A stretch of 64,000 bases of DNA from a phage. The translations under genes and the position numbers were made by a program. A model generated the notes under the pieces. That model had not been told where the DNA came from and searched no databases. It saw nothing but the letters and a program-made list of their open reading frames with translations. The stretch lies in the NCBI GenBank assembly GCA_024571205.1, contig GCA_024571205.1_4523.1; one strand, written 5' to 3'. Shown here in pieces: positions 1 through 55,507 of the stretch. Each line of letters starts with the position of its first letter. Positions within the stretch are counted from its first letter, which is position 1.

Positions 1-227
1 AAATCGTGATTCAGGGCAAGACTCGTAAAGCTTTGACTGAAGAGCTAGCACAAATCGAAATGTACAAAGAACATGTCGATAAACTGGTGGGTCTTAACAT
101 CTTCCATATCACTTCCGACGAAGCACGTAAACTAGCAGAAGAAGCTAAAGCTAAGAAAGAAGAAAATGAGTATTGGAAGTCTACTGATGTTGTGACAGAG
201 TACACTAAAGACTTGGAGGCACTTTGA
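1..227 (+). CDS. 3' end of an early gene entering from upstream (partial); by synteny possibly topoisomerase II medium subunit, gene 52
   Basis: Open frame runs to the window edge, stop at 225-227, hairpin terminator follows at 304-324. Identity inferred only from T4 gene order upstream of motA. Confidence 0.35.
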   Translation, partial: IVIQGKTRKALTEELAQIEMYKEHVDKLVGLNIFHITSDEARKLAEEAKAKKEENEYWKSTDVVTEYTKDLEAL

Positions 228-303
228 GTGCCCTAGCCTTAGGATTTCTCGGTGCAATAGCTGCACTAGTGATTTGGCTGTATTGGTTGGACAAACATGA
301 TTA

Positions 304-324
304 GGGAGCTTCGGCTCCCTTTTG
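304..324 (+). terminator. rho-independent terminator (UUCG tetraloop hairpin)
   Basis: GGGAGC-TTCG-GCTCCC stem-loop (304-319) followed by TTTT. Confidence 0.6.
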
Positions 325-345
325 TGCATTTTTTCTCACAAAACA

Positions 346-375
346 GTTTACATGTGCTTCAAACATGATATTATA
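346..375 (+). promoter_or_regulatory. T4-type early promoter
   Basis: GTTTACA (-35 region 347-352), 16-nt spacer, TATTAT (369-374); 38 nt upstream of the ATG at 414. Confidence 0.5.
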
Positions 376-413
376 GACCTATCAAAACAAAACAGCCAAA
401 TTGGAGAAATAAA

Positions 414-629
414 ATGTCTAAAATGAAATTAACCCAAAACACAACTACTCGTTTCGGTAAAGTTAAACCTGGTATGAATGCTCTCCGTAAAGCACTTGTT
501 GAAGAATTAAATTTCTTAGAAGTTGAAATCAATTCTTTAGTGGTTCGCGGTTCAAATGGACATCATTTAGAAAAGCTTCGTTCTAAAAAGGCAAAACTTA
601 TTAGCCTTATTAAAGAAATGAGTTTGTAA
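414..629 (+). CDS. small early hypothetical protein upstream of motA
   Basis: 71 aa ORF with SD ggag 8 nt upstream and an early promoter at 346-375. The promoter-leader-start (MSK) segment is duplicated at motA. Confidence 0.5.
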   Translation: MSKMKLTQNTTTRFGKVKPGMNALRKALVEELNFLEVEINSLVVRGSNGHHLEKLRSKKAKLISLIKEMSL

Positions 630-666
630 ATTTTACCAGGGCTTTTGAAAAAGAGCCCAAAATAAA

Positions 667-696
667 GTTTACTTTTGCTTCAAACATGATATTATA
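667..696 (+). promoter_or_regulatory. T4-type early promoter for motA
   Basis: GTTTACT -35, 16-nt spacer, TATTAT -10 (690-695). Near-identical copy of the 346-375 promoter. Confidence 0.5.
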
Positions 697-731
697 GACC
701 TATCAAACAAATACTAATTTGGAGAAATAAA

Positions 732-1364
732 ATGTCTAAAGTTACTTACATCATCAAAGCTTCTGAAAACGCTCTGAATGAAAAAACTGCTGCAATAATG
801 GTTTATATCATTAAGAACAACTTCACCACTGCTGCCAATGTCCGTGAAGCTCTGAAAGCGGAATACAATGCATCGGTTGTTAACTCTAACATTGGTGTAT
901 TGATTAAGAAAGGTTTAGTCGAAAAATCCGGTGATGGACTTGTGGCAACCGGCGAAGCAATGGATATTATCCAAAAAGCTGCAGACCTCTTTGCCCAAGA
1001 AAATGCTCCAGAACTTCTTCAGAAACGTAACACCAGAAAAGCACGTGGAGTTACTCCTGAAATGCATGAATTAGCAAACTTTGTTTTTGAAAATATTAAA
1101 GATAAAGTTGAAGTTAAAGAAATCGGTGAAAACCGTAGTAACTTAGAAGTTCGATTCGCTAAACGAGTTCTAGGCATTCGCCAAATTGAAATTCGACGAG
1201 ATGGCGCTCTTAGAATCTTTGCATACAACATGTCAGAAACTGAATCAAAGCTGTTTACTTCTCTTGAAAATGATGTTAAGATTAAGATCGGTGGTAAATA
1301 TACTTACATTGACTTCCCTAATGTGTCTAAAGAAATCATTACCCTTGTAACTAACGTACTGTGA
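732..1364 (+). CDS. motA: MotA, activator of middle-mode transcription
   Basis: 210 aa, MSKVTYIIKAS...NSNIGVLIKKGLVEKSGDG, near-identical in length and sequence to T4 MotA as recalled. Confidence 0.9.
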   Translation: MSKVTYIIKASENALNEKTAAIMVYIIKNNFTTAANVREALKAEYNASVVNSNIGVLIKKGLVEKSGDGLVATGEAMDIIQKAADLFAQENAPELLQKRNTRKARGVTPEMHELANFVFENIKDKVEVKEIGENRSNLEVRFAKRVLGIRQIEIRRDGALRIFAYNMSETESKLFTSLENDVKIKIGGKYTYIDFPNVSKEIITLVTNVL

Positions 1365-4983: not shown

Positions 4984-5013
4984 ATAAACCTCCAGGGCCC
5001 GAAGGCCCTTTTA

Positions 5014-8964: not shown

Positions 8965-8988
8965 CGCGAAAAGGAGACCGAAGTCTCC
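8965..8988 (-). terminator. rho-independent terminator after gene 35 (minus strand)
   Basis: GGAGAC-CGAA-GTCTCC hairpin (8973-8988) followed on the minus strand by UUUU, then the gene 36 late promoter. Confidence 0.55.
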
Positions 8989-8989
8989 T

Positions 8990-17263: not shown

Positions 17264-17285
17264 GGGAGACTTCGGTCTCCCTTTT
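17264..17285 (+). terminator. rho-independent terminator after gene 32
   Basis: GGGAGAC-TTCG-GTCTCCC hairpin (17264-17281) followed by TTTT. Confidence 0.65.
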
Positions 17286-17312
17286 GAGTATCTGTAAATT
17301 ACTGAAAAAGTT

Positions 17313-17341
17313 GTTTACTTCTTCCATGGATGTGTTAGTAT
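17313..17341 (+). promoter_or_regulatory. T4-type early promoter
   Basis: GTTTACT -35, 16-nt spacer, TAGTAT -10, directly after the gene 32 terminator. Confidence 0.5.
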
Positions 17342-17370
17342 AGACCTATCAACAACATGAGGAAATCAAA

Positions 17371-17763
17371 ATGGAAATCGGAAAATCTTATATCATTAAC
17401 CCTTTATTTAAAGACGACTTTGTTCAAGAAGCACCACATAATAACGCTAAGATGTTAAAATTGATTGAACTCCATGGGCCTAGTTTTGTTGTAAACGGAA
17501 TGGAACCTGATTATGATAGCGATACGCCAAACGTAGTAAGTGTAACTATGGAAGATGGTACTGTATGTTCTGCCGGTGGTGAAATTGGAACTTATTTTGA
17601 GATTTATCCTGACGAGTTCAAATACTTTACTGAGGTAGATTTAGTAAAGCCTCAAACTACTAACGAAGGTATAACTTTAGGTGTAACAAAAATCCATTGT
17701 ATCGTAGATGAAACCAACGTCGACGAAATCATCGAACTTTTGCAAAAAACTTTTAAAAAGTAG
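17371..17763 (+). CDS. hypothetical early protein (frd.x position)
   Basis: 130 aa ORF after early promoter 17313-17341 and SD gagg. Confidence 0.55.
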   Translation: MEIGKSYIINPLFKDDFVQEAPHNNAKMLKLIELHGPSFVVNGMEPDYDSDTPNVVSVTMEDGTVCSAGGEIGTYFEIYPDEFKYFTEVDLVKPQTTNEGITLGVTKIHCIVDETNVDEIIELLQKTFKK

Positions 17764-17792: not shown

Positions 17793-17825
17793 AGCCCTAT
17801 CAAATCAAAAGTGAAGGAGAATAAA

Positions 17826-18074
17826 ATGAGATTGCAACGTCAGAGCATCAAAGATTCTGAAGTTAGAGGTAAATGGTACTTCAACATCGTCGGTAAAGAC
17901 GCTGAACTCCTTGAACAAGCTGAAGAAGCTTTACGTGAAATGGGTTGGAACGAAGAATGTGATGGATGTCCACTCTATGAAGATGGTGAAAGTGCAGGAT
18001 TCTGGATTTGCCACTCTGACGTTGAAATGTTCAAAGCTGATTGGAAGGTTGTTAAGAAAAATCTGAGGAAATAA
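17826..18074 (+). CDS. hypothetical early protein
   Basis: ATG at 17826 after SD aaggag; the longer track ORF start (17763) lies inside promoter-like sequence. Confidence 0.5.
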   Translation: MRLQRQSIKDSEVRGKWYFNIVGKDAELLEQAEEALREMGWNEECDGCPLYEDGESAGFWICHSDVEMFKADWKVVKKNLRK

Positions 18075-23356: not shown

Positions 23357-23380
23357 GACGGGACTTCGGTCCCACTTTAT
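23357..23380 (+). terminator. hairpin / probable terminator after nrdB
   Basis: GGGAC-TTCG-GTCCC hairpin followed by a T-rich tract (actttatt). Confidence 0.45.
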
Positions 23381-31306: not shown

Positions 31307-31555
31307 ATGATTAAACAATTACAACACGCTCTTGAACTGCAACGCCATGCATGGAATAATGGTCACGAAAACTACGGCGCGTCAATTGATGTTGAAGCCG
31401 AAGCACTGGAAATCTTACAGTATTTCAAACATCTGAATCCAGCACAGGCCGATCTTCGTGATGTACTGGCTCAGAAAGATGAATTGAAATATGCTAAGCC
31501 TCTGGCTTCAGCAGCTCGTAAAGCAGTTCGTCATTTTGTTATTACCCTGAAGTAA
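31307..31555 (+). CDS. rIII: rIII lysis-inhibition accessory protein
   Basis: 82 aa, MIKQLQHALELQRHAWNNGHENYGASIDVEAEALEILQYFKHLNPAQ matches T4 rIII. Confidence 0.9.
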   Translation: MIKQLQHALELQRHAWNNGHENYGASIDVEAEALEILQYFKHLNPAQADLRDVLAQKDELKYAKPLASAARKAVRHFVITLK

Positions 31556-31577
31556 GTTAAATCGAGGAGCCGTCGAA

Positions 31578-31781
31578 TTGTCTGATTATCGATTTGCGAA
31601 TCGGTATGTTTTAGAAGTACCGCCCCGACAATTTTACGGTGTACCTCTTGAATGTTATTCTTATAGCGGCAAGTGCATGCTACCCCGAGGTGATGGCCAA
31701 TCGGGAGTACGCCTCAAGGCCTATATATCCATCAGTATATATCTTATCCTCGAGAAATCGAACCCGGAACCTTTAAGCTAA
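31578..31781 (+). CDS. possible small ORF (TTG start), doubtful
   Basis: 67 aa frame with TTG start 8 nt after SD gaggag; the C-terminal half is low-complexity, coding status uncertain. Confidence 0.2.
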   Translation: MSDYRFANRYVLEVPPRQFYGVPLECYSYSGKCMLPRGDGQSGVRLKAYISISIYLILEKSNPEPLS

Positions 31782-31925
31782 CGGTGTGCAACAGATAAGA
31801 GCTATAAGGTATGATGACGGGTTTATGGTTATCCTGTCGTTAAATATCCAAAACCTATGTTCCCCATGAGGGCTTGCGCAGGCAATGTCAATAAGTCCTG
31901 CATTTTCATTTAAAGAGAATTTATA

Positions 31926-32105
31926 ATGGCAAAACAAGCTAAAGCAAAGAAAGCAGTTGAAAAGAAAGTTGATGGTACCTCTAAACGCGCTGGATACAAG
32001 CGTGGGTCGAACTCTCGTATTAATCAAACAGTTGAGAAGATCATGCGCAGAGCACGTGCAGTTCTTCGAGATGATGCTTCTCGTTTTGGAAAGGTTGTTG
32101 CATAA
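31926..32105 (+). CDS. small lysine/arginine-rich protein (59 aa), below the ORF-track size cut-off
   Basis: Hand translation gives MAKQAKAKKAVEKKVDGTSKRAGYKRGSNSRINQTVEKIMRRARAVLRDDASRFGKVVA; a strong UUCG hairpin terminator follows at 32111-32133. Confidence 0.35.
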   Translation: MAKQAKAKKAVEKKVDGTSKRAGYKRGSNSRINQTVEKIMRRARAVLRDDASRFGKVVA

Positions 32106-32110
32106 TTTTA

Positions 32111-32133
32111 GGGAGACTTCGGTCTCCCTTTTG
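32111..32133 (+). terminator. rho-independent terminator
   Basis: GGGAGAC-TTCG-GTCTCCC hairpin (32111-32128) + TTTT; the hairpin is identical to the one after gene 32. Confidence 0.65.
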
Positions 32134-32164
32134 TGCGTTTAGGGCAGAAAAAGTTTAAAAAGAT

Positions 32165-32193
32165 GTTTACTCTCCTGTAGGATGTGTTACTAT
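32165..32193 (+). promoter_or_regulatory. T4-type early promoter
   Basis: GTTTACT -35, 16-nt spacer, TACTAT -10, just after terminator 32111-32133. Confidence 0.5.
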
Positions 32194-32235
32194 AGACTTG
32201 TACCACCTAATCAATAAAACAAACTGGAGAATAAA

Positions 32236-32604
32236 ATGAAAATCAATCTGAACTCATACATCAAATGTAAAGAACACGACGGTTATAAAGCTATCGAAAT
32301 TAAAGAATTCCAGTGGATGTTATACAAAGAGCAATTTGAGTTCGTAAGTTGTATGACCCCTGAAGGTCCTTCAAATGATTTCTCTTGGAAAATTGTGTTA
32401 GCAAACTTTTTCACAGGTGACACATACGAATTAAAAACTATTATTACCGGTAAAATTCGCTCAGAAACATATGTTGACGAAGAAACTGGTTACTCTGAAG
32501 ATGTTACATGGTATCAAAATGGACGCATTACAGCAGATAACCTGATCGAAAAAATGAAAGCCAAAGGTGTTTTAAATTTAGACAATTGGATTAAAGTTGC
32601 ATAA
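32236..32604 (+). CDS. hypothetical protein
   Basis: 122 aa ORF after early promoter 32165-32193 and leader ctggagaataaaATG. Confidence 0.55.
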   Translation: MKINLNSYIKCKEHDGYKAIEIKEFQWMLYKEQFEFVSCMTPEGPSNDFSWKIVLANFFTGDTYELKTIITGKIRSETYVDEETGYSEDVTWYQNGRITADNLIEKMKAKGVLNLDNWIKVA

Positions 32605-32608
32605 AACA

Positions 32609-32637
32609 GTTTACTTTGGTACAGGATATGTTATTAT
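32609..32637 (+). promoter_or_regulatory. T4-type early promoter
   Basis: GTTTACT -35, 16-nt spacer, TATTAT -10. Confidence 0.5.
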
Positions 32638-32678
32638 ATACCTGTACCAACAAACAACTTAAACATCTGGAGAATAAA

Positions 32679-33044
32679 ATGAACTACATCAACTTCGAAC
32701 GTAAATATGTTTCTAACGGTATCGCTGGTTCTTCTGAAGTTATTTGCTTATGGAAACACGAAAACGGTACAGTTTGTGAAATCGAACAGTGCATGACTCC
32801 TAATTATGTTTATATGCGATTTGAAAATGGCATCACGGTTTCAATCACGATGGAAGGTTCAAATTTTAAAATTGCATTAGATGATGATTTCCGTCAGCGC
32901 GATTTAGGTACTCATCCTTGCTGGAATGGTGTTAATCGTAAACTTCTGGTTAAAACCTGGATTCGTCATATCCTGAGTAACCGAGCTAAACCTGAACATC
33001 TCGAAGCAATCTTTGATGTAGTTCTTAATGAATTTGATATCTAA
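32679..33044 (+). CDS. hypothetical protein
   Basis: 121 aa from ATG 32679 after early promoter 32609-32637 and the same leader (ctggagaataaaATG) as the preceding ORF. Confidence 0.5.
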   Translation: MNYINFERKYVSNGIAGSSEVICLWKHENGTVCEIEQCMTPNYVYMRFENGITVSITMEGSNFKIALDDDFRQRDLGTHPCWNGVNRKLLVKTWIRHILSNRAKPEHLEAIFDVVLNEFDI

Positions 33045-33079
33045 ATTAATTGGGAGCTTCGGCTCCCAGTGAGGAAATT

Positions 33080-33694
33080 ATGTTTAAAGTTAATACTTTT
33101 TATAAAATGAATTTTAAAAATGGGGATATTACTCCACGCCTTAAAAACATGTTCTCATATGACCTTATCGAGCCTTTTGAAGTTTTAGAAGTTACTGATG
33201 CTGGCTCGGTTTGTGAAATTAGAACTTCTGAAGGTAAAATTTATCAGGCAGGTGTTGGTAAATTCAGTAATTGTTTTACTTTAATATTCTCGACCGATTT
33301 AGATGAGCATTTTATTGAATGTCCTAACCCTAAGGTCTATGAAGTTCCACATCAAGAAATTAAGAAAAATGGCCCGCACGAATATACGAAGGTTGAAACT
33401 CCTCACGGCGTGATGTGGCGTCATAACTCTCCTTTTGGAAGTAAAGGAACATTTGCTCAACCGTCTAAACCGTATGACGATGAAAAATACATCGTCGTCT
33501 TTTTATCTGAACAGGGTACTCAAGACCGTGGATGCCAACGTTCCGGATTATTGAGTGAACTCGAAGCTCATAACCAAGCACGTGAATTCGTTGAGAAAAA
33601 TCCTGGTTCTGAAGCTCTAGTCATGAAAGCAATTACTCAATATATCACTGCTCAACCTGTTGTTCATCCGGTGGAAATTAATTTCGTTAAGTAG
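33080..33694 (+). CDS. hypothetical protein
   Basis: 204 aa from ATG 33080 (SD gagg); the track start at 33050 lies inside a hairpin (33052-33067). Confidence 0.55.
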   Translation: MFKVNTFYKMNFKNGDITPRLKNMFSYDLIEPFEVLEVTDAGSVCEIRTSEGKIYQAGVGKFSNCFTLIFSTDLDEHFIECPNPKVYEVPHQEIKKNGPHEYTKVETPHGVMWRHNSPFGSKGTFAQPSKPYDDEKYIVVFLSEQGTQDRGCQRSGLLSELEAHNQAREFVEKNPGSEALVMKAITQYITAQPVVHPVEINFVK

Positions 33695-37189: not shown

Positions 37190-37377
37190 TGAAAGCTTAT
37201 TTAGAAACAGTAGTTGTCGCTAATAAAGATGGCGGTGATGTTTCCACCTCTTGTTCCCAAATTGTATTAGATTTTCCTAATAACGATTCCTATAATATTT
37301 TTATGGACAATTTTGATAAGTACGAAAAAGGCCCTAATTTTGAAGTTTATCGTACTTTGCTCCCGATTGTGGATTAA
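37189..37377 (+). CDS. hypothetical protein
   Basis: 62 aa from ATG 37189 overlapping the ligase stop (TAATG); terminator follows at 37378-37397. Confidence 0.4.
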   Translation: MKAYLETVVVANKDGGDVSTSCSQIVLDFPNNDSYNIFMDNFDKYEKGPNFEVYRTLLPIVD

Positions 37378-37397
37378 GAGCCTTCGGGCTCTTTTTG
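37378..37397 (+). terminator. rho-independent terminator after the ligase block
   Basis: GAGCC-TTCG-GGCTC hairpin followed by TTTTT. Confidence 0.6.
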
Positions 37398-39872: not shown

Positions 39873-39881
39873 ACCCCTAAA

Positions 39882-39904
39882 GGGAGACAACGTCTCCCTT
39901 TTTC
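39882..39904 (+). terminator. rho-independent terminator between the alt block and gene 54
   Basis: GGGAGAC-AAC-GTCTCCC hairpin followed by TTTTTC; sits between convergent transcription units. Confidence 0.6.
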
Positions 39905-48438: not shown

Positions 48439-48463
48439 TTTTATCTCCTAAGGGCCGAAGCCC

Positions 48464-49978
48464 TTATAAATTAATTGTTTTCATTACATAGTTAAATTTC
48501 TCATCAGCGTAACGCTGGATACGATCAATACCGTGTTTTAACAAGTAATTAAGATGAGTATACTTCTTTTTAGTATTTAATGATTTAGGTTTTACACCTG
48601 CGTCATCGATGAGATCCCAAACTGTAGCAACAGCTTTAGAACCATGCTTACGAAGCACACGACCTACTGTTTGAAGTACGATAATTTTTGATTTAACACC
48701 ATGGGCAAAAATAACATGATGAAGATTCTTGACTGAAATACCGGTAGAGAATACTCCATATGATGCGACAATAATAATGCCTTTACCATTTTCTGCCATG
48801 ACTTTAAGCGCGTTACGTGTTTCAGTATCAACTTCACCTGATACGTAATAAACTTTTTCGTATCCAAGCTCTTTAATAGCTTCAAATATTTCTTTACCGT
48901 GTGTAACATGTTTAAACATTACAAAGGCGTTCTCGTCTTTCTTGGCTAATTTGACTGAAAGTTGAGCAATCCACTTTGTACGACGTTTTAGTCCGGTAAT
49001 AATTTTAACTTCTTCTTGGTATGTTTTACCTTTTAATTTGGTGGCGAATTCGTCTGGATAACGAAGGAAAATACTATTAATCTTAAGCTCAGTTACCTGT
49101 CCGTCTTCCATTAATTTAGACGTGCTAACAGGACGGAAGATTTCGCCGAACATACCTACGTACTGCATTACATTGGCTTTTCCGTCTCTTAATGAGCCAG
49201 ATAAACCGAATTTAAACATGCAATTATTTAATCCTGAGATGATTGAAGAAATACTTTTGCCTGTTGCTAAGTGGCATTCATCGTTCATCATCATACCGAA
49301 CTGAGAGAACCATTCTTTAGGCTGCTTAACTACCGTTTGCCATGTGCCAACAATAATTGGAGCGTCGTTTTTAGCTCTGTCTGCTTTATCAGCACCACCG
49401 CCAATTTTCTTAATCATCGAATGACTAAACAAGCGATAATCAACAAAATCATTAGCCATCTGGGTTGTCAATGCTGTTGTAGGGACGATAATGAGAATTT
49501 TACCTTCATAGTTCTCTAGATAATACCGAGATAAAAGTGCTTGGATTAGTGATTTACCTGCTGATGTCGGAAGGTTTAAAATTCGACGACGATTAACTAG
49601 TCCTTCATATACTGCATCTTTTTGATACCAATGTGGTTCGATTTTGGCGTTGCCCGAATAAATTTCTTGTTTAGAAAGCCACGCGTCAAAATCTTCCCTG
49701 GTAAGGTCTTCAGTCTCAAAGATTTTAGGGTCAATCCATATAGAATAACTCATATTGTTACAGAACTTTTTTATTTGTCCTACAAGACCATATGGTAACA
49801 AACGATTGTAATCTAAAAGTCGAATTCTACCATCCCATTGCCCATAGCGATATTTTGGGTTAAATTTATACCCGTCGGCTTCAAAGCTAAAAAAGTCACG
49901 AAGTTCGTAAAACGTACTTTCGTCGCATTCAATGCGAACGTGACTAAAATCATAAAAATGTACTTTAATGTCAGTCAT
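48464..49978 (-). CDS. uvsW: UvsW DNA/RNA helicase
   Basis: 504 aa, MTDIKVHFYDFSHVRIECDESTFYELRDFFSFEADGYKFNP..., Walker A region PTSAGKS and DECH box MMMNDECH; matches T4 UvsW. Confidence 0.93.
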   Translation of the reverse strand: MTDIKVHFYDFSHVRIECDESTFYELRDFFSFEADGYKFNPKYRYGQWDGRIRLLDYNRLLPYGLVGQIKKFCNNMSYSIWIDPKIFETEDLTREDFDAWLSKQEIYSGNAKIEPHWYQKDAVYEGLVNRRRILNLPTSAGKSLIQALLSRYYLENYEGKILIIVPTTALTTQMANDFVDYRLFSHSMIKKIGGGADKADRAKNDAPIIVGTWQTVVKQPKEWFSQFGMMMNDECHLATGKSISSIISGLNNCMFKFGLSGSLRDGKANVMQYVGMFGEIFRPVSTSKLMEDGQVTELKINSIFLRYPDEFATKLKGKTYQEEVKIITGLKRRTKWIAQLSVKLAKKDENAFVMFKHVTHGKEIFEAIKELGYEKVYYVSGEVDTETRNALKVMAENGKGIIIVASYGVFSTGISVKNLHHVIFAHGVKSKIIVLQTVGRVLRKHGSKAVATVWDLIDDAGVKPKSLNTKKKYTHLNYLLKHGIDRIQRYADEKFNYVMKTINL

Positions 49979-52126: not shown

Positions 52127-52148
52127 AAGGGGCTTCGGCCCCTTTCTT
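52127..52148 (+). terminator. rho-independent terminator after hoc
   Basis: GGGGC-TTCG-GCCCC hairpin followed by a T-rich tract. Confidence 0.55.
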
Positions 52149-55149: not shown

Positions 55150-55179
55150 GTTTACAACGTATTTGGTATGTGATACTAT
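55150..55179 (+). promoter_or_regulatory. T4-type early promoter driving the antisense ORF between genes 24 and 23
   Basis: GTTTACA -35, 17-nt spacer, TACTAT -10. Confidence 0.5.
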
Positions 55180-55209
55180 AGACTTATCAACTACAGAGGA
55201 GTAAACAAA

Positions 55210-55479
55210 ATGACTAAAGCACGTTTCTTACGAGATACTTTAAAAGTTCTGGAAGCTGAAGCAGTTAAGTTAGTAGAAAAATACGGTGCAAAAGTTAATG
55301 GTAATGCCTTCAACAAAGTATGGATGAAAGTTGATTCTGAAGCTCGAGCTAAAGGCTATTGGGCCACTGATAAACTTGCATCATTCAAAAACAAAGATGG
55401 TTCTCCAGCATATGTCCAAGAAGGTATGCCTAATTGGCAAAATATTTTGAAAACTTACATCGAAATTGCACAGAAATAA
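55210..55479 (+). CDS. hypothetical protein encoded antisense between head genes 24 and 23
   Basis: 89 aa ORF with its own early promoter (55150-55179), SD gagg and a hairpin immediately downstream (55490-55507). Confidence 0.55.
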   Translation: MTKARFLRDTLKVLEAEAVKLVEKYGAKVNGNAFNKVWMKVDSEARAKGYWATDKLASFKNKDGSPAYVQEGMPNWQNILKTYIEIAQK

Positions 55480-55481
55480 AA

Positions 55482-55507
55482 CCAAAAATGGGAGACCGAA
55501 GTCTCCC
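55482..55507 (-). terminator. rho-independent terminator after gene 23 (minus strand)
   Basis: GGGAGAC-CGAA-GTCTCCC hairpin (55490-55507); on the minus strand it is followed by a U-run (complement of 55484-55488). Confidence 0.6.

What the first reader, a model, noticed from the sequence alone, without database searches (positions are those of the whole stretch)
304..742. Recurrent terminator-hairpin plus early-promoter cassettes, including a duplicated promoter-leader-start module
Seen in sequence: the segment tgcttcaaacatgatattatagacctatcaaa (355-386) and the leader ttggagaaataaaATGtctaaa (401-422) recur almost exactly at 676-707 and 719-740, so two adjacent genes share promoter, leader and first codons (MSK). 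The same 18-nt hairpin GGGAGACTTCGGTCTCCC or its complement occurs at 17264, 32111 and 55490, with a close variant at 8973, often directly followed by a GTTTAC early promoter. These resemble the promoter-early stem-loop cassettes proposed to mediate modular gene shuffling in T4-type phages; they border the variable small-ORF blocks here.
Basis: partly seen in the sequence, partly recalled or inferred. Interest (0 to 1): 0.4.

Follow-up and report, generated by a model that had tools for sequence, protein, structure and literature searches.

The report
Duplicated terminator-promoter cassettes flanking motA
In this RB69-like T4-type phage, two near-identical terminator, early-promoter and leader cassettes flank a small gene upstream of motA, and relatives show recombination between them removing the gene and homogenising the copies, which is a clear but expected example of the known PeSL cassette system.

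Summary
A 32-nt promoter core (355-386 / 676-707) and a 22-nt leader plus start (401-422 / 719-740) are exactly duplicated, with 0 expected by chance. GGGAGACTTCGGTCTCCC occurs three times, plus one variant.

The window is a Mosigvirus (RB69-like, 99.4% to SHSML-52-1). The locus reads: gene 52, CUUCGG terminator hairpin, early promoter, 71-aa ORF, GNRA hairpin, early promoter, motA.

About half of Mosigvirus records lack the ORF and carry one cassette, with the junction inside the shared leader. Dhakavirus-type relatives show independent single-cassette chimeras that cross over in the promoter core or in hairpin 2. The two copies share lineage-specific substitutions, which indicates gene conversion. 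ORF-plus and ORF-minus genomes are interleaved in flanking-sequence distance.

Across the window, 4 of 12 indel or replacement events touch cassette zones covering 3.2% of the sequence (P≈0.003). Most cassettes are stable.

The hairpins behave as RNA-level terminators: UUCG is on the sense strand in 11 of 11 cases. The leaders match or nearly match the RegB/S1 site.

Verdict: these are PeSL-type cassettes (Arbiol 2010; Comeau 2014), a new member of a known kind, of modest interest.

Side observation: a ~140-nt covariation-supported structured RNA at 31663-31806 has no Rfam match.

The parts
224..304 (+). Unannotated 26-aa hydrophobic micro-ORF (TTG start overlapping the gene 52 stop). It sits at the position of T4 motA.1, and its stop codon overlaps hairpin 1.
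   Evidence: Translation. AR1 has motA.1 at the same position, and Bp7 has a 35-aa hydrophobic ORF there.
303..320 (+). Hairpin 1: AGGGAGC-TTCG-GCTCCCT (CUUCGG tetraloop) followed by a U-run at 321-335. Read as the intrinsic terminator of the gene 52 unit.
   Evidence: (-14.8 kcal/mol, z -4.1). PhAPEC2's depositors annotated it as a terminator.
337..422 (+). Cassette copy 1. A-tract 337-345; -35 GTTTAC 346-351; spacer containing TGCTTCA 355-361 and TGn 366-368; -10 TATTAT 369-374; leader; GGAG SD / RegB-like site 403-413; ATG 414 plus codons 2-3.
414..629 (+). ORF71, the cargo gene between the two cassettes (phrog_6200, unknown function). Predicted as a disordered basic N-terminus plus a two-helix hairpin.
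639..658 (+). Hairpin 2: GGGCTTTT-GAAA-AAGAGCCC (GNRA loop) with no U-run after it. Read as an attenuator or stability element rather than a canonical terminator.
   Evidence: -12.3 kcal/mol, z -3.4. A compensatory G-C to A-T change appears in Dhakavirus copies.
658..740 (+). Cassette copy 2. A-tract; -35 GTTTAC 667-672; spacer containing TGCTTCA 676-682; -10 TATTAT 690-695; leader; GGAG SD 721-731; ATG 732 plus codons 2-3 of motA.
732..1364 (+). motA, the activator of middle transcription, served by cassette copy 2.
   Evidence: PF09158 + PF09114.
17264..17374 (+). Cassette after gene 32. Hairpin GGGAGAC-TTCG-GTCTCCC 17264-17281 with U-run; -35 17313-17318; -10 TAGTAT 17336-17341; leader; ATG 17372 (frd.2-like). 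DCP548 has an extra 83-aa ORF inserted here.
32111..32238 (+). Cassette after 30.9. Identical 18-nt hairpin 32111-32128 with U-run; -35 32165-32170; -10 TACTAT 32188-32193; exact RegB/S1 consensus GGAGAATAAAA 32226-32236; ATG of 30.8.
   Evidence: The T4 orthologue has the same architecture.
32609..32681 (+). Second member of a tandem pair flanking 30.8. -35 32609-32614; -10 TATTAT 32632-32637; GGAGAATAAAA 32669-32679; ATG of 30.7. It has no upstream hairpin, and an inverted repeat spans the -10.
33051..33068 (+). TGGGAGC-TTCG-GCTCCCA hairpin after 30.7 (same core as hairpin 1). It is the left boundary of the 30.6 replacement in PhAPEC2.
55150..55212 (+). Early promoter and leader of the RB69ORF188c-like 89-aa ORF. 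It is the left boundary of the module replaced in JK45 by a divergent allele plus segD.
55490..55507 (-). Same 18-nt CUUCGG hairpin, read on the - strand and followed by a U-run. Read as the terminator of gene 23. It is the right boundary of the JK45 replacement.
   Evidence: PhAPEC2 annotates it as a terminator.
8972..8989 (-). Variant hairpin AGGAGAC-TTCG-GTCTCCT on the late (tail-fibre) strand between genes 35 and 36. It is not part of an early-promoter cassette.
   Evidence: PhAPEC2 annotates a terminator after gene 35.

Best explanation
These are PeSL-type regulatory cassettes of a T4-type phage. Each is a stack of signals. A CUUCGG-tetraloop hairpin with a U-run terminates the upstream transcription unit. 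It is followed by a very strong sigma-70 early promoter: A-rich UP-like tract, GTTTAC -35, TGn, and a TAnnAT -10. Then comes a short leader whose GGAG-plus-A-rich Shine-Dalgarno doubles as a RegB/S1 cleavage site, and then the start codon.

Upstream of motA the cassette is present twice in tandem, flanking a 71-aa gene. That gene is therefore expected to share motA's expression programme: an immediate-early, strong, RegB-limited burst.

The two copies share 32 + 22 nt of exact identity. The phage's own homologous-recombination machinery therefore recombines them. Crossovers pop out (or reinsert) the ORF together with one cassette, and non-crossover events (gene conversion) keep the copies alike, in Mosigvirus as far as the first three codons of ORF71.

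Shown here: the repeats, the presence/absence polymorphism, the junction positions, the chimeric single copies, the co-variation between copies, the strand bias of the hairpins, and the enrichment of indel boundaries at cassettes. Inferred: promoter strength, termination, RegB cleavage, the recombination pathway, and any circular intermediate.
For: Identity and context: the window is 99.4% identical to Mosigvirus SHSML-52-1, with gene order 52, ORF, motA, arn, asiA.

Repeats beyond chance.

The pair is an outlier among 91 pairs of this phage's early promoters, with a 32-nt exact run against 14 or fewer for all others.

ORF71 is present in 94 phage records, including about 76 Mosigvirus. About 151 Mosigvirus-level records match the locus, so roughly half lack it.

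JK45, O157tp6, DCP548, L015 and L016 carry one cassette. It is copy 1 up to TTGGAGAAATAAAATGTCTAAA and then motA.

Dhakavirus-type L017 and L019 are copy-1/copy-2 chimeras crossing over in the promoter core. L043 crosses over inside hairpin 2. L034 and L043-45 have the same cassette behind a different upstream ORF. L043-45 combine a T4-like MotA (51% identity) with a Dhakavirus-type cassette.

Concerted evolution: both copies read TGCTTC/TATTAT/GGAGAAATAAA in Mosigvirus and TGCTTT/TACTAT/GGAGATACAAA in Bp7, while the mid-leader keeps orthologue-specific sequence. L020's two copies share a private GTTTACTTA variant. Mosigvirus ORF71 starts MSK like MotA, and all other homologues start MNK.

ORF-plus and ORF-minus genomes are interleaved in flank distance.

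Second case: DCP548 has a 263-bp ORF insertion between the -35 and the leader of the 17264 cassette, with 26 nt aligning to both flanks. Third and fourth cases are at 33051-33086 and 55201-55476.

Enrichment: 4 of 12 events touch zones covering 3.2% of the window, P=0.003.

RNA-level role of the hairpins: 11 of 11 have UUCG on the sense strand, and the reported early-cassette hairpins at 303, 17264 and 32111, plus those after late genes 23 and 35, are followed by U-runs.

Literature: PeSL definition and T4-group consensus TTTACW-N17-TAYWAT with the stem-loop just upstream (PMC2839356, PMC4122927). RegB/S1 site GGAGAAUAAAA, and motA as a good substrate (PMC1702504). MotA mRNA is cut in its SD, and early promoters combine UP/-35/TGn/-10 (PMC2988021). 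CUUCGG hairpins were discovered in T4 mRNA (PMC4371310).
Against: Nothing was tested experimentally. Promoter activity, termination and RegB cleavage are inferred from sequence and from T4 literature.

Most cassettes (about 16 of 23 elements), including the second tandem pair around 30.8, show no indel in the four relatives compared.

Whole-gene indels must end between genes, and these phages place promoters and terminators there. Part of the enrichment could therefore reflect survival of viable recombinants rather than homology-driven targeting.

One of the four cassette-bounded events (55201-55476) involves a segD homing endonuclease, which has its own mobility mechanism.

The concerted-evolution inference rests on about six sites.

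The motA/ORF71 leader matches the RegB consensus at only 9 of 11 positions.
Confidence: 0.8

Rival explanations
1. Functional convergence only. The two cassettes, and the recurrent hairpins, are alike because each signal (early-promoter consensus, RegB/S1 site, optimal CUUCGG terminator) is under strong purifying selection. Recombination between them plays no real part in genome change.
For: All ~14 early promoters in the window share an extended consensus beyond the hexamers. The shared leader of the 32165/32609 pair is exactly the published RegB/S1 consensus. T4's orthologous cassette has the same architecture with a different stem sequence. Most cassettes are stable among relatives.
Against: The 32-nt exact run covers non-consensus spacer and initial-transcribed bases and is more than twice the next-longest run among 91 promoter pairs. 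The copies co-vary between genera and within L020. The ORF is precisely absent with junctions inside the repeat, at three different positions in different lineages. The MSK start of Mosigvirus ORF71 is not a regulatory signal.
Confidence: 0.08
2. The indels arise by replication slippage or template switching between short direct repeats. This is copy-choice, independent of the UvsX/UvsY strand-exchange pathway and of any circular intermediate, rather than by PeSL-type homologous recombination.
For: The repeats are short (22-41 nt) and only 318-321 bp apart, a geometry that favours slippage. A loop inversion in hairpin 1 between relatives (TTCG vs CGAA) shows that template-switch-type events occur at this locus.
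Against: Sequence comparison cannot separate the two mechanisms. The mosaic pattern (patches converted without deletion) and cassettes found behind different upstream ORFs (L034, L043-45) fit recombination between co-infecting genomes better than intramolecular slippage. Arbiol et al. report circular products between PeSLs in RB49/phi1.
Confidence: 0.15
3. The unusual spacer shared by the two promoters carries a MotA operator. TGCTTCA is the MotA-box core, and MotA would bind there to shut off its own promoter and ORF71's promoter. Under this view, the spacer identity reflects a shared regulatory site rather than recombination.
For: TGCTT(C/T)A is present in both copies in Mosigvirus and Dhakavirus, and in none of the other ~12 early promoters of the window. 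One- to two-mismatch variants occupy the same position in motA promoters of many genera. MotA tolerates box deviations, and several early genes are over-expressed in motA- infections (PMC2988021).
Against: The box lies 7 bp from the -10, not the 12±1 bp required at middle promoters. The T4 motA promoter lacks it in this orientation. Only 14 of 44 loci have exact TGCTT. The motA- effect on early genes is attributed to a delayed switch to middle transcription. It does not explain the identity of the -10, initial-transcribed and SD-to-start segments, or the deletions.
Confidence: 0.08
4. The recurrent hairpin is a DNA-level recombination signal, a cruciform or protein-binding site as Arbiol et al. 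speculated, rather than an RNA terminator.
For: Three identical 18-nt copies sit at non-orthologous sites, whereas the T4 orthologue of one of them has a different stem. L043's junction lies inside hairpin 2. RB49 mini-circle junctions were mapped in a stem-loop.
Against: A DNA palindrome would work in either orientation, yet UUCG is on the transcribed strand in 11 of 11 hairpins, on both early and late strands, and several are followed by U-runs on that strand. Most crossover points mapped here are in the promoter or leader, not the hairpin. These hairpins also occur between late structural genes that show no plasticity (8972, 48449).
Confidence: 0.07

Closest known systems
PeSL (promoter-early stem-loop) cassettes of T4-type phages (Arbiol et al. 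2010, PMC2839356; Comeau et al. 2014, PMC4122927)
   Same: Composite intergenic element with an AT-rich tract, a sigma-70 early promoter, an adjacent stem-loop, and the SD and ATG of the downstream gene. The promoter form TTTAC(A/T)-N16-TATTAT fits the T4/PST-group consensus TTTACW..TAYWAT, with the stem-loop just upstream. It flanks a small gene of unknown function. Close relatives differ by exact loss or gain of the flanked ORF, with crossovers in the cassette between the -35 and the ATG.
   Different: It is described here in Mosigvirus (RB69-like) and Dhakavirus, which those papers did not analyse. One of the two flanked genes is the core regulator motA rather than an ORFan. The data add explicit evidence for gene conversion between copies, reaching into the coding start. 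No mini-circle or reporter data exist for this locus.
T4 early promoters (UP/-35/TGn/-10 type; Hinton 2010, PMC2988021)
   Same: GTTTAC -35, TGn, TAnnAT -10, an upstream A-tract, and extra conserved positions. In T4, motA is an early gene.
   Different: The motA/ORF71 pair has a spacer (TGCTTCAAACATGA) unlike the '..GGATGTGT' spacer common to the other early promoters of this genome, and it contains a MotA-box-like heptamer.
RegB/S1 endoribonuclease target sites in early-gene Shine-Dalgarno regions (Durand et al. 2006, PMC1702504)
   Same: GGAG followed by an A-rich tract directly before the ATG. GGAGAATAAAA is exact at 17816, 32226 and 32669. T4 motA mRNA is a documented good substrate.
   Different: The motA/ORF71 leader GGAGAAATAAA deviates at positions 7 and 8 of GGAGRAYARAA. 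Cleavage in this phage is untested.
CUUCGG hairpins of T4 mRNAs (Tuerk et al. 1988, as recounted in PMC4371310) and intrinsic terminators
   Same: C(UUCG)G tetraloop on a G+C stem in intercistronic regions. Those after genes 52, 32, 30.9, 23 and 35 are followed by a U-run.
   Different: Three copies here are identical over 18 nt at non-orthologous sites. Hairpin 2 (639-658) has a GNRA loop and no U-run, so it is not a canonical terminator.
Phage 'morons' and integron gene cassettes
   Same: A single gene carried together with its own promoter and terminator, added or removed as a unit.
   Different: Mobility here depends on homology between the regulatory sequences themselves. There is no integrase or attC site, and it does not rely on illegitimate recombination.

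Membership tests
PeSL cassette (Arbiol 2010 / Comeau 2014) | Sigma-70-type early promoter; in the T4/PST group, TTTACW ... TAYWAT | tested here: met
   TTTACA-N16-TATTAT at 347-374 and TTTACT-N16-TATTAT at 668-695, both with TG before the -10. Consensus taken.
PeSL cassette (Arbiol 2010 / Comeau 2014) | AT-rich tract upstream of the -35 | tested here: met
   CACAAAACA (337-345) and CAAAATAAA (658-666). An A-rich consensus also appears across the window's promoters.
PeSL cassette (Arbiol 2010 / Comeau 2014) | Stable stem-loop adjacent to the promoter (just upstream in the T4/PST group) | tested here: met
   Hairpin 303-320 lies 26 nt before the -35 (-14.8 kcal/mol). Hairpin 639-658 lies 8 nt before the -35 (-12.3 kcal/mol). 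The 32609 and 55150 promoters lack an upstream hairpin.
PeSL cassette (Arbiol 2010 / Comeau 2014) | Shine-Dalgarno and start codon of the downstream gene at the 3' end of the element | tested here: met
   GGAG at 403-406 with ATG 414; GGAG at 721-724 with ATG 732.
PeSL cassette (Arbiol 2010 / Comeau 2014) | Coincidence with insertion, deletion or replacement differences between close relatives, with crossovers inside the element | tested here: met
   ORF71 indel with junctions in the leader, promoter core or hairpin 2. DCP548 insertion at 17348-17373. 4 of 12 events at cassette zones, P=0.003. Not met at most other cassettes.
PeSL cassette (Arbiol 2010 / Comeau 2014) | Demonstrated promoter and terminator/attenuator activity | not testable with these tools
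   Needs reporter fusions or transcript end mapping.
PeSL cassette (Arbiol 2010 / Comeau 2014) | Formation of circular excision products (mini-circles) between neighbouring elements | not testable with these tools
   Needs inverse PCR or deep sequencing of infected cells.
Intrinsic (Rho-independent) terminator | G+C-rich stem-loop directly followed by a U-run on the transcribed strand | tested here: met
   Met for 303-320, 17264-17281, 32111-32128 (+ strand) and 55490-55507, 8972-8989 (- strand). NOT met for hairpin 2 (639-658), which is followed by AAAAUAAAG.
MotA-dependent middle promoter | MotA box (a/t)(a/t)(a/t)TGCTTtA positioned 12±1 bp upstream of the -10 element, replacing the -35 | tested here: not met
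   TGCTTCA ends 7 bp before TATTAT, a good -35 is present, and there is no TAnnnT at the right distance.
RegB/S1 cleavage site | Single-stranded 11-nt GGAGRAYARAA (T4 optimum GGAGAAUAAAA), usually in an early-gene SD | tested here: inconclusive
   403-413 and 721-731 read GGAGAAATAAA, a 9/11 match. Exact matches lie at 17816, 32226 and 32669. Cleavage itself is not testable here.

The most novel reading that the evidence does not exclude
The MotA-box core TGCTT(C/T)A sits in the spacer of both the motA and ORF71 early promoters, and variants occupy the same position in motA promoters of many genera. It could be an operator through which MotA directly shuts off its own early promoter. Such a negative autoregulatory loop has not been described for T4-type phages. 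The duplicated cassette would then have recruited ORF71 into the same loop.
Probability: 0.07. Interest if true: 0.5.

Novelty: new member of a known kind. Interest (0 to 1): 0.3.

Why it matters
The locus gives a base-resolution natural example of how T4-type phages gain, lose and re-wire small early genes. Regulatory cassettes kept similar by selection also serve as portable homology for recombination. Here this is seen as a population polymorphism (about half of Mosigvirus records), as several independent crossover points, and as gene conversion reaching into a coding start.

It extends the PeSL idea to the RB69-like and JS98-like genera and to the promoter of a core regulator, motA. The same promoter cassette occurs in front of motA alleles that are only about 51% identical.

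For annotation, it explains why ORF71 varies in presence, and why its start codons copy motA's.

It does not change the current understanding of these phages.

Tried and rejected
(1) Single-protein locus search in IMG/VR gave only 2 loci. It was replaced by an alignment-seeded search that gave 44.

(2) Middle-promoter reading of the TGCTTCA heptamer was rejected on spacing.

(3) Rfam (gathering) and tRNA scans of the whole window found nothing.

(4) ORF71 function: Pfam has no hit, PHROGs gives only an unknown-function family, the AlphaFold2 model is a two-helix hairpin, and Foldseek against the PDB gives no match at E ≤ 0.001. No function can be assigned.

(5) My first hairpin census demanded at least 5 T in 8 nt and so missed hairpin 1. 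It was replaced by a CTTCGG-centred census.

(6) Exact-match anchoring of junctions in relatives failed because of SNPs and was redone with BLAST coordinates.

(7) A literature search for autoregulation of motA found only the indirect explanation for early-gene over-expression in motA- infections.

(8) I did not fetch RB69, T4 or a Dhakavirus over the full 64 kb. The window-wide breakpoint statistics therefore rest on four Mosigvirus genomes.
Full report
WHAT THE WINDOW IS. The first 3 kb match Shigella phage SHSML-52-1 (genus Mosigvirus, RB69-like T4-type phages) at 99.4%. Hundreds of Tevenvirinae records match at lower identity. In that record the gene order is ndd, ac, 52 (topoisomerase II medium subunit), a hypothetical 71-aa gene, motA, arn.4 to arn.1, and asiA. 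The holin t and the tail-fibre genes follow on the other strand. JS09's T4-style gene names give the map for the rest of the window. The finding therefore lies in the intergenic space between gene 52 and motA.

OBSERVATION.
- The 32-mer TGCTTCAAACATGATATTATAGACCTATCAAA is exact at 355-386 and 676-707, with no further match at up to 3 mismatches and none in shuffles.
- The repeat extends to 337-393 / 658-714 (86%) and 398-422 / 716-740 (24/25).
- GGAGAAATAAAATG occurs only at 403 and 721.
- The two genes (414-629 and 732-1364) both begin MSK.
- GGGAGACTTCGGTCTCCC is exact at 17264 (+), 32111 (+) and 55490 (-), with a 2-mismatch variant at 8972-8989 (-). Zero matches are expected by chance.

ANATOMY. 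In reading order:
- The last codons of gene 52.
- An unannotated 26-aa hydrophobic micro-ORF (224-304) at the place of T4 motA.1.
- Hairpin 1, AGGGAGC-UUCG-GCUCCCU with a U-run (303-335; -14.8 kcal/mol).
- Cassette copy 1: an A-tract; -35 GTTTAC (346-351); a 16-nt spacer with TG at 366-367; -10 TATTAT (369-374); a 39-nt leader with GGAG at 403-406; ATG at 414.
- ORF71.
- Hairpin 2, GGGCUUUU-GAAA-AAGAGCCC (639-658; -12.3 kcal/mol), which has no U-run.
- Cassette copy 2: A-tract, GTTTAC (667-672), the same spacer, TATTAT (690-695), GGAG (721-724), and ATG 732 of motA.

The window has about 14 promoters of this GTTTAC type, all on the + strand. They share a consensus that extends upstream and downstream of the hexamers, as described for T4 early promoters (PMC2988021). 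Among the 91 promoter pairs, 347/668 has the highest identity. Its exact run of 32 nt compares with 14 or fewer for every other pair. Its spacer (TGCTTCAAACATGA) is unlike the '..GGATGTGT' spacer of most others.

WHAT THE HAIRPINS ARE. A census of CTTCGG hairpins finds 12. Eleven have stems of 5 bp or more: 303, 17264, 23360, 32110, 33051, 37376 and 52127 on the + strand, and 4994, 8970, 48449 and 55489 on the - strand.
- In all eleven the UUCG loop is on the strand transcribed locally, on early and late strands alike.
- The reported early-cassette hairpins (303, 17264, 32111) and those after late genes 23 and 35 are followed by a U-run on that strand.
- A DNA-level palindrome would have no such orientation preference, so these look like RNA-level elements: intrinsic terminators or 3' stabilisers.
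- PhAPEC2's depositors annotated the same hairpins as ARNold terminators.
- CUUCGG hairpins were first found in T4 mRNAs (PMC4371310).

Only three of the seven + strand hairpins are directly followed by an early promoter, at +26, +32 and +36 nt. The copies at 55490 and 8972 terminate or punctuate late genes 23 and 35. T4's orthologue of the 32111 cassette has the same layout but a different stem (GGACTCC..GGAGTCC). By contrast, three non-orthologous hairpins in this genome are identical. That fits either intragenomic copying or convergence on an optimal hairpin.

THE LEADER. The T4 RegB endoribonuclease, with ribosomal protein S1, cuts early mRNAs in an 11-nt site, GGAGAAUAAAA (general form GGAGRAYARAA). 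The site usually lies in the Shine-Dalgarno, and motA mRNA is a good substrate (PMC1702504; PMC2988021). The exact consensus occurs three times in the window, always at an SD on the + strand: 17816, 32226 and 32669. The latter two belong to a second tandem promoter/leader pair, which flanks gene 30.8. The motA/ORF71 leader GGAGAAATAAA matches 9 of 11 positions. GGAG is the SD of motA in 42 of 44 loci from many genera. Part of the leader identity is therefore functional.

COMPARATIVE TEST AT THE motA LOCUS.
- ORF71 occurs in 94 phage records: about 76 Mosigvirus at 95% or more, and 17 Dhakavirus-type at 72-76%. About 151 Mosigvirus-level records match the locus, and many match in two pieces with a ~320-bp gap. 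Roughly half therefore lack the gene.
- In JK45, O157 typing phage 6, DCP548 and two IMG/VR contigs there is exactly one cassette. It is copy 1 (hairpin 1, CACAAAACA, leader ..AAAACAACCAAATT) up to TTGGAGAAATAAAATGTCTAAA, and then continues as motA. The junction lies in the 22-nt shared leader and start.
- Bp7 and other Dhakavirus-type genomes have both copies.
- Among 44 motA loci, L017 and L019 are single-cassette chimeras. They have copy-1 upstream sequence, copy-2-type leaders, and a crossover in the promoter core.
- L043 has a junction inside hairpin 2.
- L034 and L043-45 have hairpin 2 plus copy 2 behind a different upstream ORF.
- L043-45 combine a T4-like MotA (51% identity to the window's) with a Dhakavirus-type cassette.

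These are several independent events, all within the repeated cassette.

GENE CONVERSION.
- Both copies read TGCTTC / TATTAT / GGAGAAATAAA in Mosigvirus and TGCTTT / TACTAT / GGAGATACAAA in Bp7.
- The middle of the leader keeps copy-specific, orthologous sequence. Paralogue versus orthologue identity there is 8/16 vs 9/16, against 20/20 vs 14/20 for the SD-to-codon-3 segment.
- L020's two copies share a private variant, GTTTACTTA.
- Mosigvirus ORF71 begins MSK like MotA, while all other homologues begin MNK. The converted tract therefore runs into the coding region.
- ORF-plus and ORF-minus genomes are interleaved in flank distance. For example, window(+) differs from O157tp6(-) at 12 sites and from JS09(+) at 29, and PhAPEC2(+) is closest to DCP548(-). 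The polymorphism is not a single clade-defining event.

WINDOW-WIDE TEST. I aligned the window to the syntenic ~65 kb of JK45, DCP548, JS09 and PhAPEC2. This gave 12 indel or replacement events. Four have a boundary in a cassette:
- ORF71.
- A 263-bp insertion in DCP548 at 17348-17373. It is an extra 83-aa ORF with its own promoter core, joined at the conserved -35/A-tract and at the ATCAACAA..GAGGAAA leader, and 26 nt align to both flanks.
- The 30.6 replacement in PhAPEC2, which starts at the hairpin, SD and ATG after 30.7.
- The module from the -35 at 55150 to the gene 23 hairpin, replaced in JK45 by a divergent allele plus segD.

Cassette zones cover 3.2% of the window. Random placement gives a mean of 0.66 events, and P(4 or more) = 0.003.

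The other events are the adhesin and tail-fibre mosaics, hoc, an nrdB intron endonuclease, a frd.1 paralogue, and a non-coding RNA-like element. About 16 of 23 cassette elements, including the 30.8 pair, are unchanged in all four relatives. A caveat applies: gene-sized indels must end between genes, which is where cassettes sit, so the random-placement null is generous.

MECHANISM. The best-supported reading is the PeSL model of Arbiol et al. and Comeau et al.. Composite terminator and early-promoter elements insulate and drive small early genes. Because selection keeps them similar, they also serve as homology for the phage's very active recombination system, which moves, deletes and swaps the genes between them.

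At motA the tandem arrangement should also give ORF71 the same expression programme as motA. Since hairpin 2 is not a canonical terminator, motA probably receives transcripts from both promoters. All of this is inferred.

The sequence comparisons show where exchanges happened. They do not show by which pathway, so replication slippage cannot be excluded, and no circular intermediate was looked for.

THE MotA-BOX LOOKALIKE. TGCTT(C/T)A in the spacer is the core of the MotA box. It lies 7 bp from the -10 instead of 12±1 bp, next to a good -35, so this is not a middle promoter. Variants occupy the same position in motA promoters of many genera, and exact TGCTT occurs in 14 of 44. Direct autoregulation is not excluded but has no support beyond this. 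The known rise of early-gene expression in motA- infections is attributed to a delayed switch to middle transcription.

CARGO. ORF71 belongs to a narrow family of unknown function (phrog_6200, 8 protein clusters). It is predicted as a disordered basic N-terminus plus a two-helix hairpin (pLDDT 76), with no informative structural match.

VERDICT. The elements meet every sequence-level criterion of PeSLs. The activity and mini-circle criteria cannot be tested here. This is a new member of a known kind, in genera not covered by the PeSL papers, and a clear natural example with multiple crossover points and gene conversion. A specialist would not find it surprising. Interest 0.3.

SIDE OBSERVATION. 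The 370-nt non-coding gap between rIII and 30.9 (31556-31925) is far more conserved than coding DNA: 997 records match, mostly at 90-95%.
- Its central ~140 nt (31663-31806) is absent from T4, JK45, DCP548, JS09 and PhAPEC2.
- The same segment is present, roughly 90-97% identical by inspection of the alignment, at the same locus in Klebsiella, Enterobacter and other T4-type phages whose MotA is only 43-70% identical.
- Twelve distinct copies fold into a common 44-pair, 8-helix structure with 99.1% of cells paired.
- Twelve pairs show double changes, against a shuffle mean of 4.2 (0 of 500 shuffles reach 12) and 0-1 in slid controls.
- G·U pairs and a GAAA loop place the RNA on the + strand.
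- Rfam 15 has no match even at E ≤ 1, and one literature search found nothing.

This looks like an undescribed structured RNA and deserves its own follow-up.

Noticed in passing
window 31663-31806 (+ strand), between rIII (31307-31555) and 30.9 (31926-32105): A ~140-nt GC-rich non-coding element. It is absent from T4 and four Mosigvirus relatives, but present at the same locus (roughly 90-97% identical by inspection of the alignment) in Klebsiella, Enterobacter and other T4-type phages whose proteins are only 43-70% identical. Twelve distinct copies support a 44-pair, 8-helix fold: 99.1% of cells paired, and 12 pairs with compensatory double changes against 4.2 in shuffles (0 of 500 shuffles reach 12). 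G-U pairs and a GAAA loop put it on the + strand. There is no Rfam 15 match at E ≤ 1 and no tRNA call. It is a candidate undescribed structured RNA of unknown function.
   Followed up: yes
window 31556-31662 and 31807-31925: The non-coding flanks of that element are themselves ~91% identical to T4 (AF158101 130541-130753, nothing annotated), well above the identity seen in neighbouring coding DNA. A UGCG-loop hairpin there shows a compensatory change: CGATT-TGCG-AATCG in the window versus TGATT-TGCG-AATCA in T4. This may be a conserved 5' UTR structure of 30.9.
   Followed up: partly
window 224-304 (+): An unannotated 26-aa hydrophobic micro-ORF (LSALALGFLGAIAALVIWLYWLDKHD; TTG start overlapping the gene 52 stop, GGAGG just upstream). 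It sits at the position of T4 motA.1 (49 aa, hydrophobic), and Bp7 has a 35-aa hydrophobic ORF there. It is not annotated in SHSML-52-1, JS09, JK45 or PhAPEC2.
   Followed up: partly
window 303-320 vs L004 (DCP548) and L013 (JS09): The loop of hairpin 1 is inverted between close relatives. It reads GGGAGC-TTCG-GCTCCC in the window, JK45 and O157tp6, and GGGAGC-CGAA-GCTCCC in DCP548 and JS09. This is a hairpin 'flip' of the kind produced by template switching, and it removes the UUCG tetraloop from the sense strand.
   Followed up: partly
window 32165-32238 and 32609-32681: A second tandem promoter/leader pair flanks gene 30.8. Both copies end in CTGGAGAATAAAATG, the exact published RegB/S1 consensus. 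Unlike the motA pair, it is intact in all four relatives compared.
   Followed up: partly
window 32616-32650 (+): The promoter of 30.7 carries an inverted repeat across its -10 (GGTACAGGATAT..ATATACCTGTACC). This resembles the RB49-type PeSL subclass in which the stem-loop overlaps the -10. L021 has a similar AGGTCTAT..ATAGACCT repeat across the -10 of its motA promoter.
   Followed up: no
window 4994-5009, 23360-23373, 33051-33068, 37376-37393, 48449-48466, 52127-52144; 39879-39901: Six further CUUCGG-tetraloop hairpins, all with UUCG on the locally transcribed strand. In addition, one hairpin has the same GGGAGAC/GTCTCCC stem with an AAC loop.
   Followed up: partly
L043, L044, L045 (IMG/VR contigs), positions ~1080-1210: These loci have a MotA that is only 51% identical to the window's (T4-like), yet they carry the Dhakavirus-type promoter cassette almost base for base. 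The regulatory cassette and the motA coding sequence therefore have different histories.
   Followed up: partly
window 18066-18074: JK45, DCP548 and JS09 have two tandem 249-nt frd.1-like paralogues where the window and PhAPEC2 have one. This is a 241-bp indel with a 9-nt overlap, not at a promoter/hairpin cassette, and looks like unequal exchange between paralogues.
   Followed up: no
window 22850 (nrdB) and 55201-55476: JK45 carries an intron-like endonuclease insertion in nrdB (+1091 bp), and a segD homing endonuclease between genes 23 and 24. The window has neither. This is mobile-endonuclease polymorphism alongside the cassette-bounded events.
   Followed up: no
L002/L009/L010 (NC_054940.1, Shigella phage JK45): The record's taxonomy line places JK45 in Tequatrovirus, yet over this 64-kb region it is 94-98% identical to Mosigvirus genomes. 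The label looks wrong.
   Followed up: no
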